A stretch of DNA of 64,000 nt from an uncultured Alphaproteobacteria bacterium (GTDB lineage Bacteria; Pseudomonadota; Alphaproteobacteria; Paracaedibacterales; CAITNM01). Each line of letters begins with the position of its first letter. Positions within the stretch are counted from its first letter, which is position 1. The DNA is taken from contig CAIQTY010000051.1 in NCBI GenBank assembly GCA_903874955.1, positions 2,686-66,685 on the forward strand, given 5' to 3'. Under the pieces are notes generated by a model. The model saw only the letters and a program-made list of their open reading frames with translations, did not search any database and was not told the DNA's origin. Shown piece after piece: positions 35,718 to 37,946 of this stretch. The translations under genes were made by a program, and so were the position numbers.

Positions 35718-37946
35718 ATGTTATACGTAAATAAAAAAAACCAAAGATTAAGAATCTTATCCCTATCTTGTATGCTGTGCGCTGCTATGGTGCCAGAGGT
35801 TTATGGATCCAGCCTAACCGGTGAAGAACTAAATCCTGGTGCTGCTGTGAATTTTTCCTCACCAGGGGCTGCGCCTGCTAGTCCTGCAAGCGCATCACCT
35901 TCTTCCAGTTCTTCGTCTAGCGTATCACCTACGGCACCTGCCCGCTTGAGTCCTTTTGATAAAGATATGCTTCTTGCTGATTTTAAAACTTCTGACCATA
36001 CAGATCTTAATAGAATTCTTAAAGGTATTAATATTTCTAGACAACTTAAGCGTAAGGAAGAGGAGATTCAATTCCTAGAAAAGGCTGTAAGATACGGACA
36101 TTTTGATAGCATGGTTACTTTGGGCCAGATTTACCAGCAACGTAGCGACTATCGTACAGCATATGGCTGGTACACTCTAGCTTTTGAAGAACATTGGTTA
36201 AATACAGGTCAACATCATGAAGCTGCTAAACAGCAATTAAACGAGGCTTTTTTAAAAAACTTATTAGAATTGCTAAATCGTGATCAAAGAAAATACTTTA
36301 AAAATTTTAATCATCATTCAAAAGGCTATTTTTCAGACTTTAAAAATTCTACAGGAAATAGCTTAAATAAAGACTCTGTAGTTAATTTAAATAAAATAAC
36401 AAAAAATATTTACAATTCATATTTAAATAAAGAACAGGCAGAATTGAGGAGGCTCAGATTCAAAGCAAAAATAAATGAATTAAATGAAATTAAAGAACCA
36501 TGGTTTGATATGGCGATTGAATATTTCAGTAGTAATAATTACAAGCCCTCGCTAATTTGTATGATTTGTCTCGAACGATCAAAAAATCCAGAGGCATTGT
36601 TTAACCTGGGTGTTTTTTTTGCTTTTGGTGATGCACCCTTTGAATTACCAGACAATGAAAGATACCAAAAAGCAGCCCAGTATTATGCAGAATCAGGAAA
36701 CGCAAAAGCATTGTGTAACTTGGGTCATTTGTATTTGGATGGAAAAATAGGACTTGATTTATCGGAAGAAGAACGGTTACTGAGGGCAGAGGTGTGTTTT
36801 AGAAAATCAGGAAATGAGCAATCATTGACTGCTTTGGCTGGGTTGTCTTATTTAGGAAAAATAGATCTTGGATTGGGAGAAATTGAAAGATTTAAGAAAG
36901 CTGAGGCATTTTTCAGGCAATCTGGCAGCTTAGTGGGGCTAATGAATTTGTTATTAATGCATAAGCATCTATCAATTGAATTAGAAGATAAAGAAATTGT
37001 AAAAATAACAATTCAACAAAAAATTTCTCATTGTAGTGCGCCTAAAAGGCTATTTCTTCTGGGGTTAATATCCTACGTAGATAATAATTACGCACAAGCA
37101 ATAATTCATCTTTCACAGGCTGTTGTTTTAGGTAATAAAGATGCCAATCATTTATTAAAATTGGTTGAAGAAATTTATCATTATGAGAATAAATTGGAAG
37201 AACTCAAAAAAAAAGAAGCATCTGACCAAACTGCTACAGTTAGAAATGACAAAAAAGAAAATGCCGTCGTAGTACAAGGTAGTATCGATCAAGAAAAAAG
37301 TACCCAAGCGACTCTTGTGTTAGCTGATCAAGAAAGTTCTTCTAAAAAAGAAGAGGTCTCTAAGGTTGCAGAAAGTCCAGTTTCATCATTAAGTTCATCC
37401 TCCGATGAGCAAATAAGTTCTGACAGTGATGAAGAAGAAGCCGATGATAGTTCATCCCCCTCATCATCATCATCATCATCTTCTTCTTCCTTAAAAAAAA
37501 CTAAACTATCTACAACAGAAGAAAGAATGAAAAGGACCGAACGAAAATTGGAATTGGCTCATGAAAAAGCGAAAAAGCATTCCATGAATTATATGGCATC
37601 GTCTCCTAGGGAAGATAGCAAAGAAACTAAAACCCTTGAACCTCTTGAAATAAGCTATCTAAGCTCTCAGATTAAAAAAACTTTTGAGAACGTGTTAGGA
37701 TCCTCCGACGAGCAGCTTAAGCTTAAAATTCAAACAATTTTTGAAGATATTTCAGAAAAAACCTGGGCAACATCCGGTGTAGGTAAACCAGAAGTTTTAA
37801 AGGGAAAATATAGAGACTACACTGGTATATTCCACAAAGGGTGTTTCTCTAGGCGTTTGATTGGAGGAGATCGGTTGGTATACAAAGTGCTCGGGCCAAG
37901 GCAGATTCAAATCTTGGGTTGTGAAGGTCATTATGAAAAAAGGTAG
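35718..37946 (+). CDS. secreted Sel1-repeat protein with a Ser/acidic linker and a C-terminal YoeB/Txe-like endoribonuclease domain
   Basis: Leader LRILSLSCMLCAAMVPEVYG and an N-terminal Ser/Pro/Ala-rich segment. Sel1-like repeats (ALFNLGVFFAFGD..YQKAAQYYAESGNAKALCNLGHLYLDGKIG..). A coiled coil and SSSSDEQISSDSDEEEADDSSSPSSSSSSSSSS. The C-terminus ...GVGKPEVLKG...CFSRRLIGGDRLVYKVLGPRQIQILGCEGHYEKR matches YoeB ...GKGKPEPLKH..FWSRRITEEHRLVYAV...IAACRYHY. Confidence 0.75.
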   Translation: MLYVNKKNQRLRILSLSCMLCAAMVPEVYGSSLTGEELNPGAAVNFSSPGAAPASPASASPSSSSSSSVSPTAPARLSPFDKDMLLADFKTSDHTDLNRILKGINISRQLKRKEEEIQFLEKAVRYGHFDSMVTLGQIYQQRSDYRTAYGWYTLAFEEHWLNTGQHHEAAKQQLNEAFLKNLLELLNRDQRKYFKNFNHHSKGYFSDFKNSTGNSLNKDSVVNLNKITKNIYNSYLNKEQAELRRLRFKAKINELNEIKEPWFDMAIEYFSSNNYKPSLICMICLERSKNPEALFNLGVFFAFGDAPFELPDNERYQKAAQYYAESGNAKALCNLGHLYLDGKIGLDLSEEERLLRAEVCFRKSGNEQSLTALAGLSYLGKIDLGLGEIERFKKAEAFFRQSGSLVGLMNLLLMHKHLSIELEDKEIVKITIQQKISHCSAPKRLFLLGLISYVDNNYAQAIIHLSQAVVLGNKDANHLLKLVEEIYHYENKLEELKKKEASDQTATVRNDKKENAVVVQGSIDQEKSTQATLVLADQESSSKKEEVSKVAESPVSSLSSSSDEQISSDSDEEEADDSSSPSSSSSSSSSSLKKTKLSTTEERMKRTERKLELAHEKAKKHSMNYMASSPREDSKETKTLEPLEISYLSSQIKKTFENVLGSSDEQLKLKIQTIFEDISEKTWATSGVGKPEVLKGKYRDYTGIFHKGCFSRRLIGGDRLVYKVLGPRQIQILGCEGHYEKR

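What the first reader, a model, noticed from the sequence alone, without database searches (positions are those of the whole stretch)
35718..37946. A secreted Sel1-repeat protein carries a C-terminal YoeB/Txe-type toxin domain with catalytic residues intact and no antitoxin
The 742-aa ORF has a Sec-type leader, Sel1-like repeats, a coiled coil and a Ser/Asp/Glu-rich linker (SSSSDEQISSDSDEEEADDSSSPSSSSSSSSSS). Its last ~85 aa (nt ~37680-37943) align by eye with the ribosome-dependent mRNA interferase YoeB. The matches are LKIQTIFEDI / GVGKPEVLKG / FSRRLIGGDRLVYKV / IQILGCEGHY against VKKINELIKDT / GKGKPEPLKH / WSRRITEEHRLVYAV / LLIAACRYHY. The YoeB catalytic positions are kept: Glu of GKPE (nt 37782-37793), Arg of SRR, and the C-terminal His-Tyr. 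YoeB is normally an ~84-aa stand-alone toxin encoded after its antitoxin YefM. Here it is the C-terminal module of a large exported eukaryote-like-repeat protein. No YefM-like ORF is adjacent, because the next gene is convergent and 70 bp away. That architecture suggests a toxin-antitoxin RNase recruited as the warhead of a secreted effector or polymorphic toxin.
Basis: partly seen in the sequence, partly recalled or inferred. Interest (0 to 1): 0.78.

Follow-up and report, generated by a model that had tools for sequence, protein, structure and literature searches.

The report
Exported Sel1-repeat protein ending in YoeB RNase
A 742-residue protein with an export leader and a Sel1-repeat body ends in an apparently intact YoeB-type ribosome-dependent RNase with no antitoxin gene nearby, and it belongs to a family of about 58 such fusion proteins in alphaproteobacteria that I found described in no paper, which suggests a toxin-antitoxin RNase was turned into a secreted toxin or effector.

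Summary
ORF 35718-37946 (+) encodes 742 aa. Its parts are a Sec-type leader (aa 1-24/30), a disordered Ser/Pro stretch, an all-alpha Sel1-like solenoid (aa ~82-515), a disordered acidic/Ser linker (520-590), one helix (599-627) and a complete YoeB domain (644-739). The YoeB call passes Pfam's gathering score. A confident AF2 model has only YoeB toxins as its top ten PDB fold matches. E692, R713, R719, H738 and Y739 match E. coli E46, R59, R65, H83 and Y84; the base-stacking Glu63 is Gly here. No Phd/YefM gene lies next to it or anywhere in the 64 kb.

The protein is not a one-off. An exhaustive search found about 58 clusters of 300-1071-aa proteins with this domain at the extreme C-terminus. 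All hit YoeB, 39/59 hit Sel1 and the rest TPR; most complete ones have a leader, and none shares a neighbouring gene. The fused domains form one clade among YoeBs. Named hosts are alphaproteobacterial MAGs, including Candidatus Finniella (Holosporales).

The best reading is an exported toxin or effector acting on ribosomes outside the producer, probably the host's. Target and delivery route are inferred. Two surveys of RelE-superfamily fusions do not describe it. I rate it a new variant of a known kind, interest 0.68.

The parts
35718..37946 (+). Whole gene: 742-aa leader / Sel1 solenoid / linker / YoeB protein, stop codon included. It appears monocistronic, with a divergent gene upstream and a convergent gene downstream.
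   Evidence: It is the only copy of either module in the window.
35718..35807 (+). Sec-type leader, aa 1-30. It has a basic n-region (KKNQRLR) and a hydrophobic core (ILSLSCMLCAAMV). The cleavage site is undetermined (after Ala23 or Gly30).
   Evidence: The hydrophobicity heuristic is positive from Met1 and negative from Met24. AF2 predicts a helix at aa 2-24. The leader segment is conserved in the L001 pseudogene, and most complete family members have leaders. Caveat: the copy in the public protein collection starts at Met24, and there is no clear Shine-Dalgarno sequence.
35808..35945 (+). Disordered Ser/Pro/Ala-rich segment, aa 31-76.
   Evidence: pLDDT is below 50 for aa 29-70. The composition is visible in the translation.
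35961..37262 (+). All-alpha Sel1/TPR-like solenoid, aa 82-515, made of about 20 paired helices and ending in a long helix (aa 474-515).
   Evidence: AF2 pLDDT is mostly above 90. The best Foldseek hits are the Sel1-repeat proteins LceB, Oxalobacter SLR, c5321, SEL1L and HcpC. Pfam Sel1 and TPR hits are below threshold in the query, but Sel1 is found in 39/59 family members.
37275..37487 (+). Disordered acidic/Ser-rich linker, aa 520-590, which includes SSSSDEQISSDSDEEEADDSSSPSSSSSSSSSS.
   Evidence: pLDDT is below 50. The Ser/Asp/Glu runs start at aa 559, 567 and 582. The L001 copy carries a matching acidic/Ser-rich linker (by eye).
37512..37598 (+). Single confident basic helix, aa 599-627, just upstream of the toxin domain. 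Its role is unknown; acting as a cis inhibitor or in oligomerisation is speculation.
   Evidence: AF2 predicts helix 599-627 with pLDDT about 95. The segment is conserved in L001 (66.7% identity over aa 594-620; sequence).
37647..37934 (+). YoeB/Txe-type RNase domain, aa 644-739, with the order beta1-alpha1-alpha2-beta2..beta5. Catalytic equivalents are E692, R713, R719, H738 and Y739. Gly717 stands at the E. coli Glu63 position.
37782..37793 (+). GKPE motif. Glu692 corresponds to the general base Glu46 of E. coli YoeB.

Best explanation
The gene encodes a modular exported toxin or effector. It comes from an uncultured alphaproteobacterium, probably a Holosporales-like associate of protists.

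Proposed mechanism:
1. The N-terminal leader sends the protein through Sec out of the cytoplasm.
2. The Sel1-like solenoid is a protein-binding scaffold that would mediate targeting or uptake.
3. A long disordered acidic linker tethers the C-terminal YoeB domain.
4. Once in a target cell, the YoeB domain would bind the ribosomal A site and cleave mRNA by the Glu/His acid-base mechanism of YoeB, shutting down translation.
5. The most likely target is the eukaryotic host's ribosome.
6. The producer needs no antitoxin, because the toxin is removed from its own cytoplasm and may also be held inactive by the 640-aa N-terminal extension.

Shown: the domain identities, the fold, the conserved catalytic residues, the recurrence and single origin of the architecture, and the absence of an adjacent antitoxin or immunity gene.

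Inferred: actual export and release beyond the periplasm, RNase activity, the target organism, and the means of self-protection.
For: - Domain and fold: Pfam YoeB_toxin is above the gathering score; the family profile hits solved YoeBs at E 5e-19; the AF2 and Foldseek top ten are all YoeB.
- Catalytic columns in 58 fused members: Glu 56/58, Arg59-equivalent 54/58, Arg65-equivalent 58/58, His 57/58, Tyr 56/58. This argues for selection on activity (residue roles from PMC3814384).
- Architecture: YoeB in 59/59 members, Sel1 in 39/59, TPR in the others; no PAAR, RHS or VgrG module. Leaders, some lipoprotein-like, are present in most complete members.
- Origin: all 59 fused domains fall on one side of a single split of an NJ tree, against 121 stand-alone YoeBs.
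- No antitoxin: none adjacent here; no Phd/YefM in the window; no shared neighbour across the locus types compared.
- Hosts: the window's L20 clusters with a protein named Alphaproteobacteria bacterium. Relatives occur in Candidatus Finniella inopinata and in alphaproteobacterial MAGs.
- Feasibility of a eukaryotic target: YoeB kills Arabidopsis cells (PMC4430920). RelE is used as an A-site probe in work on eukaryotic ribosomes (PMC3632111, PMC10275262; from their titles and term counts only).
- Precedent for a TA toxin becoming an inter-kingdom effector: Bartonella FicT to Bep (PMC5675462).
- Holosporales context: Sec and T6SS are the secretion systems reported for one member; effectors are unknown; the review cites papers reporting that Holospora periplasmic proteins are translocated or secreted during infection (PMC8163844, PMC11909080).
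Against: - There is no experimental evidence for export, toxicity or target.
- The start codon is not proven: the copy in the public protein collection starts at Met24, which removes the leader, and no Shine-Dalgarno sequence is visible.
- Sec export reaches only the periplasm, and no route across the outer membrane was identified.
- YoeB's native substrate is the bacterial 70S ribosome, so a bacterial target is the more economical assumption.
- Gly717 replaces the base-stacking Glu63, so activity or specificity may differ.
- The TIGR02116 equivalog cut-off is not reached.
- A close relative carries the gene as a multiply broken pseudogene, so it is dispensable in at least one lineage.
- The assignment to Holosporales is indirect, and one relative is binned as Myxococcota on a 2-kb contig.
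- An orphan antitoxin elsewhere in the genome cannot be excluded.
Confidence: 0.5

Rival explanations
1. Antibacterial toxin. The exported Sel1-YoeB protein is released to kill competing bacteria, such as co-resident symbionts or prey, by cleaving mRNA on their 70S ribosomes. The producer is protected by export, or by an immunity or antitoxin gene encoded elsewhere.
For: YoeB's established target is the bacterial ribosome (PMC3814384). The protein has a leader and a C-terminal toxin domain, like many exported bacteriocin-type toxins. T6SS genes lie 2.8 kb away. A classical RelE domain has been seen once in a polymorphic toxin (PMC3482391).
Against: There is no immunity gene next to the toxin in any locus type compared. 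There is no receptor-binding or translocation module, RHS, filamentous repeat, PAAR or VgrG. The toxin domain is constant rather than polymorphic. Sel1 solenoids are typical of host-interaction proteins, and the best structural match is Legionella LceB. The named hosts are protist-associated lineages.
Confidence: 0.2
2. Cytoplasmic single-protein defence or abortive-infection toxin. Translation starts at Met24, so there is no leader. The Sel1/TPR region senses a phage or stress signal and holds the YoeB domain inactive in cis until triggered, like the fused or multidomain RelE/ParE defence toxins.
For: The copy in the public protein collection starts at Met24. The gene lies beside TIR-NB-ARC and LuxR-NB-ARC-TPR STAND proteins and a subtilase-like gene, a neighbourhood that resembles a defence island. 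Multidomain RelE/ParE toxins have been proposed to act in defence (PMC11980606). This model would explain the lack of a separate antitoxin.
Against: Hydrophobic or lipoprotein-type leaders are the rule in complete family members, and the leader segment is conserved in the related pseudogene. This is hard to reconcile with a cytoplasmic role. The protein has no PADLOC hit. The neighbourhood differs in every relative. The STAND and TIR neighbours only hit PADLOC at domain level.
Confidence: 0.12
3. T6SS cargo effector. The protein is loaded onto the nearby type VI system and injected into host or bacterial cells. The apparent leader is not used for Sec export.
For: A fused TssB-TssC sheath gene and tssE lie 2.8-5.4 kb downstream. 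T6SS is the secretion system conserved across Holosporales, and its substrates are unknown (PMC11909080).
Against: No PAAR, VgrG, Hcp, MIX, FIX or Rhs marker is present in any of the 59 members. Three opposite-strand genes separate it from the T6SS genes. None of the genes called beside the relatives looked up carries a T6SS Pfam family. Sec leaders are not a feature of T6SS cargo.
Confidence: 0.08
4. The domain is not a toxin. It could be a domesticated RNA- or protein-binding module of an envelope Sel1 protein, or the gene could be drifting towards loss.
For: Gly replaces the Glu63 equivalent. The nearest relative is a pseudogene. The score is below the TIGR02116 equivalog cut-off.
Against: The five catalytic positions are nearly invariant across 58 diverged clusters whose mean pairwise identity is only 43%. 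The ORF in the window is intact over 742 codons, and the domain model is confident.
Confidence: 0.07

Closest known systems
YoeB/Txe toxins of type II YefM-YoeB (Axe-Txe) toxin-antitoxin modules (Pfam PF06769; PDB 2a6q, 6l8e, 6n90, 3oei)
   Same: The fold is the same (TM 0.75-0.82 to the target) and so is the secondary-structure order. The motifs GKPE, SRR, RLVY and the C-terminal HY are present. The catalytic residues E46, R59, R65, H83 and Y84 are conserved.
   Different: The domain is not an 84-90-aa stand-alone cytoplasmic protein. It is the C-terminal module of a 742-aa protein with an export leader. There is no upstream Phd/YefM/Axe antitoxin. The loop between beta2 and beta3 is 5-10 residues longer. 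A Cys two residues before the Ser of SRR is common in the family (43/58) but rare in stand-alone YoeBs (12/119). The Glu63 equivalent is variable, and the TIGR02116 equivalog cut-off is not met.
Fused and multidomain RelE/ParE-superfamily toxins surveyed by Gerdes 2025 (YefM-YoeB and RHH-YoeB fusions; PMC11980606)
   Same: A YoeB domain is embedded in a larger polypeptide.
   Different: Those fusions carry the antitoxin or DNA-binding domain in cis and are cytoplasmic. Here the partner is a leader plus a Sel1/TPR solenoid, with no antitoxin domain. The survey explicitly left out multidomain proteins without an identifiable antitoxin. Its main text never mentions Sel1, TPR or secretion, and its supplementary files contain no Sel1-YoeB entry.
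Polymorphic toxin systems with BECR-fold RNase tips (Zhang et al. 2012, PMC3482391), including the single Tox-RelE case in Paenibacillus elgii
   Same: Both have an N-terminal export signal and a C-terminal RNase toxin domain of the BECR fold.
   Different: This family has no RHS or filamentous repeats, no HINT or other releasing peptidase, no downstream immunity gene and no cassette-like variation of the tip. The tip is constant while the body varies.
Secreted or periplasmic Sel1-repeat proteins of intracellular bacteria (Legionella LceB 8sxq, Helicobacter HcpC 1ouv; LpnE and EnhC from my own knowledge)
   Same: The solenoid resembles theirs structurally. The fold class is one associated with host interaction.
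   Different: None of the Sel1-repeat proteins matched is listed with a nuclease or toxin domain. That such proteins lack enzymatic domains in general is my own knowledge, not something tested here.
Bartonella Bep effectors derived from the FicTA toxin-antitoxin module (Harms et al. 2017, PMC5675462)
   Same: The evolutionary logic is the same: a TA-module toxin domain is fused to delivery or targeting parts and becomes an exported effector without its antitoxin.
   Different: The toxin fold differs (Fic AMP-transferase against YoeB RNase). The delivery signal differs (a BID domain for the T4SS, from my own knowledge, against a Sec leader). For Bartonella the function has been shown experimentally; here it has not.

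Membership tests
YoeB/Txe toxin domain family (Pfam PF06769) | Sequence match to the family profile at or above the curated gathering score | tested here: met
   31.2 bits on the full protein and 37 bits on the C-terminus, against a gathering score of 27. All 59 family members match.
YoeB/Txe toxin domain family (Pfam PF06769) | RelE/YoeB (BECR) fold with the order beta-alpha-alpha-beta4 | tested here: met
   AF2 pLDDT is 87.9 and pTM 0.79. The Foldseek top ten are all YoeB-family structures.
YoeB/Txe toxin domain family (Pfam PF06769) | Catalytic residues Glu46, Arg59, Arg65, His83 and Tyr84 (E. coli numbering; roles from PMC3814384) | tested here: met
   E692, R713, R719, H738 and Y739 align to them. 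The accessory Glu63 is Gly717.
YoeB/Txe toxin domain family (Pfam PF06769) | Ribosome-dependent cleavage of A-site mRNA | not testable with these tools
   This needs biochemical assays.
Txe/YoeB addiction-module toxin, NCBIfam equivalog TIGR02116 | Score at or above the equivalog cut-off, which implies the same function as the stand-alone toxin | tested here: not met
   36.8 bits against a cut-off of 51.8.
Type II toxin-antitoxin module (YefM-YoeB / Axe-Txe) | Small stand-alone toxin of about 84-90 aa | tested here: not met
   The domain is the C-terminus of a 742-aa ORF.
Type II toxin-antitoxin module (YefM-YoeB / Axe-Txe) | Cognate Phd/YefM-type antitoxin gene directly upstream in the same operon | tested here: not met
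   Upstream is a 214-bp AT-rich spacer and then a divergent subtilase-like gene. None of ten small intergenic ORFs of the window scanned against Pfam is a Phd/YefM antitoxin, and tblastn finds none. The same holds in relatives. The rest of the genome was not available.
Polymorphic toxin systems (sensu Zhang et al. 2012) | Immunity gene immediately downstream of the toxin gene | tested here: not met
   The next gene is convergent, 69 bp away. No neighbour is shared between loci.
Polymorphic toxin systems (sensu Zhang et al. 2012) | RHS, filamentous or other delivery repeats, and C-terminal tips that vary on a conserved body | tested here: not met
   Only Sel1 and TPR repeats are found. The YoeB tip is present in 59/59 members, so the tip is the constant part.
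Sel1-like repeat (SLR) proteins | Pfam Sel1 (PF08238) at or above the gathering score | tested here: not met
   The query scores 21.3 bits against 30.7, but 39/59 family members match at E up to 0.01 and the best E-value is 8e-38.
Sel1-like repeat (SLR) proteins | Solenoid of paired antiparallel helices resembling solved SLR proteins | tested here: met
   AF2 predicts helix pairs across aa 82-515. The top Foldseek hits are LceB, Oxalobacter SLR, c5321, SEL1L and HcpC.
Sec-dependent exported proteins | N-terminal signal peptide with a basic n-region, a hydrophobic core and a small-residue cleavage site | tested here: inconclusive
   A home-made hydrophobicity heuristic is positive from Met1 and the family agrees. 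No dedicated predictor was available, and the start codon is ambiguous.
T6SS cargo or specialised effectors | PAAR, VgrG, Hcp, MIX, FIX or Rhs marker, or encoded next to vgrG, hcp or an adaptor gene | tested here: not met
   No marker domain was found. Three opposite-strand genes separate it from tssBC.
Known anti-phage defence systems (PADLOC-DB v2) | Match to a defence-system protein model | tested here: not met
   There are no hits at E up to 1e-3.

The most novel reading that the evidence does not exclude
The Sel1-YoeB proteins are a lineage-specific class of host-directed effectors of Holosporales-like protist endosymbionts. A ribosome-dependent mRNA interferase taken from a type II TA module is exported and acts on the eukaryotic host's 80S ribosomes without any antitoxin. 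That would be the first RelE/YoeB-type RNase acting as a trans-kingdom effector. It would also supply a concrete candidate for the unidentified toxins behind killer traits or host 'addiction' in these symbioses.
Probability: 0.35. Interest if true: 0.85.

Novelty: new variant of a known kind. Interest (0 to 1): 0.68.

Why it matters
RelE/YoeB mRNA interferases are textbook intracellular, antitoxin-controlled toxins. The main survey of polymorphic toxins found a classical RelE domain only once, and the 2025 survey of multidomain RelE/ParE toxins set aside cases without an antitoxin. A monophyletic family of about 58 clusters, with an export leader, a Sel1 solenoid, conserved catalytic residues and no antitoxin, shows that this RNase has been stably redeployed outside the TA context.

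No T6SS substrate has been shown experimentally in Holosporales, and the Caedimonas killer toxin remains unidentified (PMC11909080). This family therefore gives a specific, testable candidate for how such symbionts harm or control protist hosts or rivals. It also raises a mechanistic question: how does a cell make a ribosome-targeting RNase safely without an antitoxin?

Tried and rejected
- Full-length homolog search: only the protein itself came back. Only the 8000 candidates sharing most words were scored; I suspect the poly-Ser low-complexity words filled that list.
- Look-up of the 719-aa database version: nothing on record.
- Single-protein genome scan: no relative found, so the source genome is not among the species representatives. 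I replaced this with a hand-designed degenerate DNA pattern, which worked.
- Profile search in the word-indexed database: it returned almost only stand-alone YoeBs. That helped confirm homology but not the census of fusions.
- Twenty multi-stretch phmmer hits: these are WD40-repeat false positives matched through 'G.PEVLRGH', and I discarded them.
- Disulfide hypothesis for the family-specific Cys: only 22/58 members have both cysteines, so I dropped it.
- Search for a conserved immunity gene or neighbour across loci: none found.
- YefM and Phd tblastn, using sequences recalled from memory, plus a Pfam scan of small ORFs: negative.
- PADLOC: no hit for the protein.
- Promoter and terminator scan: uninformative, at or below shuffle expectation.
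- Rfam: nothing in the window.
- Second copy in the window: none.
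Full report
**1. The observation**

The window holds an uninterrupted ORF at 35718-37946 (+) of 742 codons. 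It has a 214-bp AT-rich spacer upstream, beyond which lies a divergent 817-aa subtilase-like gene. Downstream, a convergent 293-aa gene ends 69 bp after the stop.

**2. Is the C-terminus really YoeB?**

Yes, by four independent tests.
- Pfam YoeB_toxin (PF06769) matches aa 662-739 at 31.2 bits (gathering score 27, E 2.3e-7), and at 37 bits when the C-terminus is scanned alone.
- phmmer against PDB sequences finds S. aureus, A. tumefaciens, S. pneumoniae, E. coli and M. tuberculosis YoeB-family chains. A profile built from the fused family hits them at E 5e-19 to 2.5e-12 and hits stand-alone YoeBs in the large protein collection at about 1e-17.
- An AF2 model of aa 643-742 built on the family alignment is confident (pLDDT 87.9, pTM 0.79) and has the order beta1-alpha1-alpha2-beta strands.
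- The ten best Foldseek PDB matches to that model are all YoeB-family toxins, with TM 0.75-0.82 normalised to the target.

**3. Catalytic residues**

The alignment to the solved E. coli chain fixes the numbering. Roles come from the YoeB-70S structure paper (PMC3814384):

| E. coli YoeB | Role | Query | Fused family (58 long members) |
|---|---|---|---|
| Glu46 | general base | E692 | E 56/58 |
| Arg59 | transition-state stabilisation | R713 | R 54/58 |
| Arg65 | transition-state stabilisation | R719 | R 58/58 |
| His83 | general acid | H738 | H 57/58 |
| Tyr84 | orients the mRNA | Y739 | Y 56/58 |
| Glu63 | stacks on the third A-site base | G717 | E 34, K 11, G 6 |

The five catalytic residues are present in the query and nearly invariant in the family. 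The Glu63 equivalent is the one difference: it is Gly in the query and variable in the family, so specificity may differ. The NCBIfam equivalog TIGR02116 is not reached (36.8 against 51.8 bits), as expected for a diverged, non-canonical member.

**4. The rest of the protein**

A full-length AF2 model (pLDDT 79.5) gives these parts:
- aa 2-24: leader helix
- aa 29-70: disordered
- aa 82-515: an all-alpha solenoid, mostly above pLDDT 90
- aa 520-590: disordered (the acidic/Ser linker)
- aa 599-627: one isolated confident helix
- aa 644-739: the YoeB domain

The query's own Sel1 and TPR Pfam scores are below threshold. The solenoid's best structural matches are nevertheless true Sel1-repeat proteins: Legionella LceB, Oxalobacter SLR, E. 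coli c5321, SEL1L and HcpC.

**5. The leader and the start codon**

The copy of this protein in the public protein collection is 719 aa, which implies a start at Met24 and removes the leader. No Shine-Dalgarno sequence precedes any candidate ATG. Three things favour the first ATG.
- From Met1 the N-terminus has a basic n-region and a hydrophobic core. From Met24 it has none.
- Most complete family members begin with Sec-type or lipoprotein-type leaders. At least 28 of 58 pass a strict heuristic, and many failures are evidently 5'-truncated fragments.
- In a related metagenomic locus the leader segment MLNLNKKTQRLRILSLSCML is conserved.

I regard export as likely, not proven.

**6. It is a family**

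An exhaustive phmmer search of 1.84 billion representatives with the last 108 aa gave 105 hits. Twenty of them are WD40 false positives. About 58 are proteins of 300-1071 aa with the match at the extreme C-terminus. The rest are short fragments or stand-alone YoeBs.

Scanning each long member against Pfam gives YoeB_toxin in 59/59, Sel1 in 39/59 and TPR variants in others. Nothing resembles PAAR, RHS, VgrG, LXG or CdiA. The N-terminal region is also homologous between members, so this is a whole-protein family rather than repeated domain shuffling.

In an NJ tree of 59 fused and 124 stand-alone domains, one split holds all 59 fused domains plus 3 short sequences, at least two of which look like fragments of fused genes. 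The other 121 stand-alone YoeBs lie on the other side. This is consistent with a single recruitment event, though I computed no support values.

**7. Hosts**

The window's ribosomal protein L20 sits in a 90%-identity cluster with a protein named 'Alphaproteobacteria bacterium'. A degenerate DNA pattern spanning the family motifs found intact fusion genes in Candidatus Finniella inopinata (Holosporales), in two Alphaproteobacteria MAGs, and on a 2-kb contig binned as Myxococcota. It also matched six metagenomic contigs, five of which carry an intact fusion ORF. The GC content of these loci is 36-44%, against about 37% for the window.

The window also carries T6SS genes, which are characteristic of Holosporales (PMC11909080). 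The Holosporales assignment of the window itself remains indirect.

**8. No antitoxin or immunity gene**

Nothing flanks the gene on the same strand. The window's small intergenic ORFs are GroES, L20, BolA and similar, not Phd/YefM, and tblastn with YefM and Phd finds nothing. In the other locus types the gene is likewise solitary. All-vs-all comparisons of flanking ORFs find no neighbour shared between distinct locus types. The remainder of the source genome could not be checked.

**9. A decaying copy**

The closest relative of the C-terminal domain (P0002, 114 aa) is the last piece of a broken copy of the whole gene in metagenome scaffolds. That copy has frameshifts near the 5' end, internal stops and another frameshift before the YoeB domain, and the same ORF pieces recur in five independent samples. 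Identity to the window gene is mosaic: 83-91% in the N-terminal part, 31-39% in the repeats and 54-56% in the toxin domain, and the acidic linker also matches closely by eye. The neighbours are different. The gene is therefore dispensable in some lineages and evolves unevenly, as effector repertoires often do.

**10. Mechanism**

The evidence supports an exported, modular protein whose conserved business end is a YoeB RNase. Because the family consistently has leaders and never a partner gene, the domain most plausibly acts outside the producer's cytoplasm.

A eukaryotic target is feasible. Pneumococcal YoeB kills Arabidopsis cells (PMC4430920), and RelE is used as an A-site probe in studies of eukaryotic ribosomes (PMC3632111 and PMC10275262; I saw only their titles, abstracts and term counts). 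The conversion of a TA toxin into an inter-kingdom effector has a precedent in Bartonella (PMC5675462). In one Holosporales member the secretion systems reported are Sec and T6SS (PMC8163844). Across the group effectors are unidentified, and the review cites papers reporting Holospora periplasmic proteins that are translocated or secreted during infection (PMC11909080).

Against this reading, the native substrate of YoeB is the bacterial ribosome, and no route across the outer membrane was identified.

I put 0.5 on 'exported toxin or effector acting on foreign ribosomes, most likely the host's'. The rivals are an antibacterial toxin (0.2), a cytoplasmic defence toxin with a Sel1 sensor (0.12), T6SS cargo (0.08), and a non-toxic or decaying domain (0.07).

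**11. Comparison with what is known**

By sequence, fold and catalytic residues the domain belongs to the YoeB domain family. The gene is not a type II TA module and not a polymorphic toxin system as defined by Zhang et al. That survey saw a classical RelE domain only once (PMC3482391). Gerdes's 2025 survey of multidomain RelE/ParE toxins describes YefM-YoeB and RHH-YoeB fusions and explicitly omits multidomain proteins without an identifiable antitoxin. Its text never mentions Sel1, TPR or secretion, and its supplementary files contain no Sel1-YoeB entry. The Bodo symbiont paper on Holosporales toxins has no occurrence of YoeB and describes other toxin systems. I found no paper describing this architecture. 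Automatic domain annotation already flags the Pfam hit.

**12. Verdict**

I rate it a new variant of a known kind, with interest 0.68. It is limited by the complete lack of functional evidence for export, activity and target.

Noticed in passing
window 40768-43877: A single 642-aa ORF carries both the VipA/TssB and the VipB/TssC domains, so the T6SS sheath is fused. It is followed by a 190-aa ORF with no Pfam hit and a TssE/gp25-like gene. The T6SS genes then stop, and a two-component system follows at 45203-47238.
   Followed up: partly
window 24484-33019: A cluster of STAND/TIR proteins: a 303-aa TIR/SEFIR-like protein (24484-25395, -), an 1123-aa TIR-NB-ARC protein (25717-29088, -) and an 1152-aa LuxR-NB-ARC-TPR protein (29561-33019, +). 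They hit PADLOC only at domain level. They could be a defence island or eukaryote-like effectors.
   Followed up: partly
window 33050-35503 (-): An 817-aa protein with a partial subtilase (Peptidase_S8) domain is transcribed divergently from the Sel1-YoeB gene. I did not test whether it could process the neighbouring protein.
   Followed up: no
window 38016-38897 (-): The convergent downstream gene encodes a 293-aa protein with an apparent N-terminal leader (by eye) and no Pfam or PADLOC match. It has no homolog next to other family members, so it is not a conserved immunity candidate.
   Followed up: partly
window 39609-40565 (-): A protein of the 'mitochondrial fission ELM1' family (PF06258, E 5e-65) lies beside a GNAT acetyltransferase.
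   Followed up: no
window 14361-14783 (+): A 140-aa protein matches Host_attach and bacterial archaeo-eukaryotic release factor family 12.
   Followed up: no
window 53900-55668: A DDE_Tnp_1-associated fragment (83 aa) abuts a 506-aa opposite-strand ORF. This may be an insertion-sequence remnant.
   Followed up: no
window 1-64000: No Rfam family, tRNA included, reaches its gathering score anywhere in the 64 kb.
   Followed up: partly
L001 6300-8345 (same breaks in L002-L005): A multiply frameshifted and stop-interrupted copy of the whole Sel1-YoeB gene. It leaves a 114-aa ORF with its own ATG and an intact YoeB catalytic set. Identity to the window gene is mosaic (83-91% / 31-39% / 54-56%).
   Followed up: yes
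L009 915-5119; L015 and L019 equivalents: In one locus type the fusion gene abuts ORFs of 443, 159 and 381 aa that look by eye like a phage or GTA head module (portal, protease, capsid). I did not test this with any tool.
   Followed up: no
L016 11054-11158: The family DNA motif matches without an intact fusion ORF, beside serine-recombinase-like ORFs. This may be a remnant copy in a mobile context.
   Followed up: no
window 37845-37850 and 37920-37925 (aa 710 and 735); family alignment: A Cys two residues before the Ser of SRR is present in 43/58 fused members but in only 12/119 stand-alone YoeBs. The Cys before GHY shows the reverse trend (34/58 against 116/119). Only 22/58 members have both, so a conserved disulfide is not supported.
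   Followed up: yes
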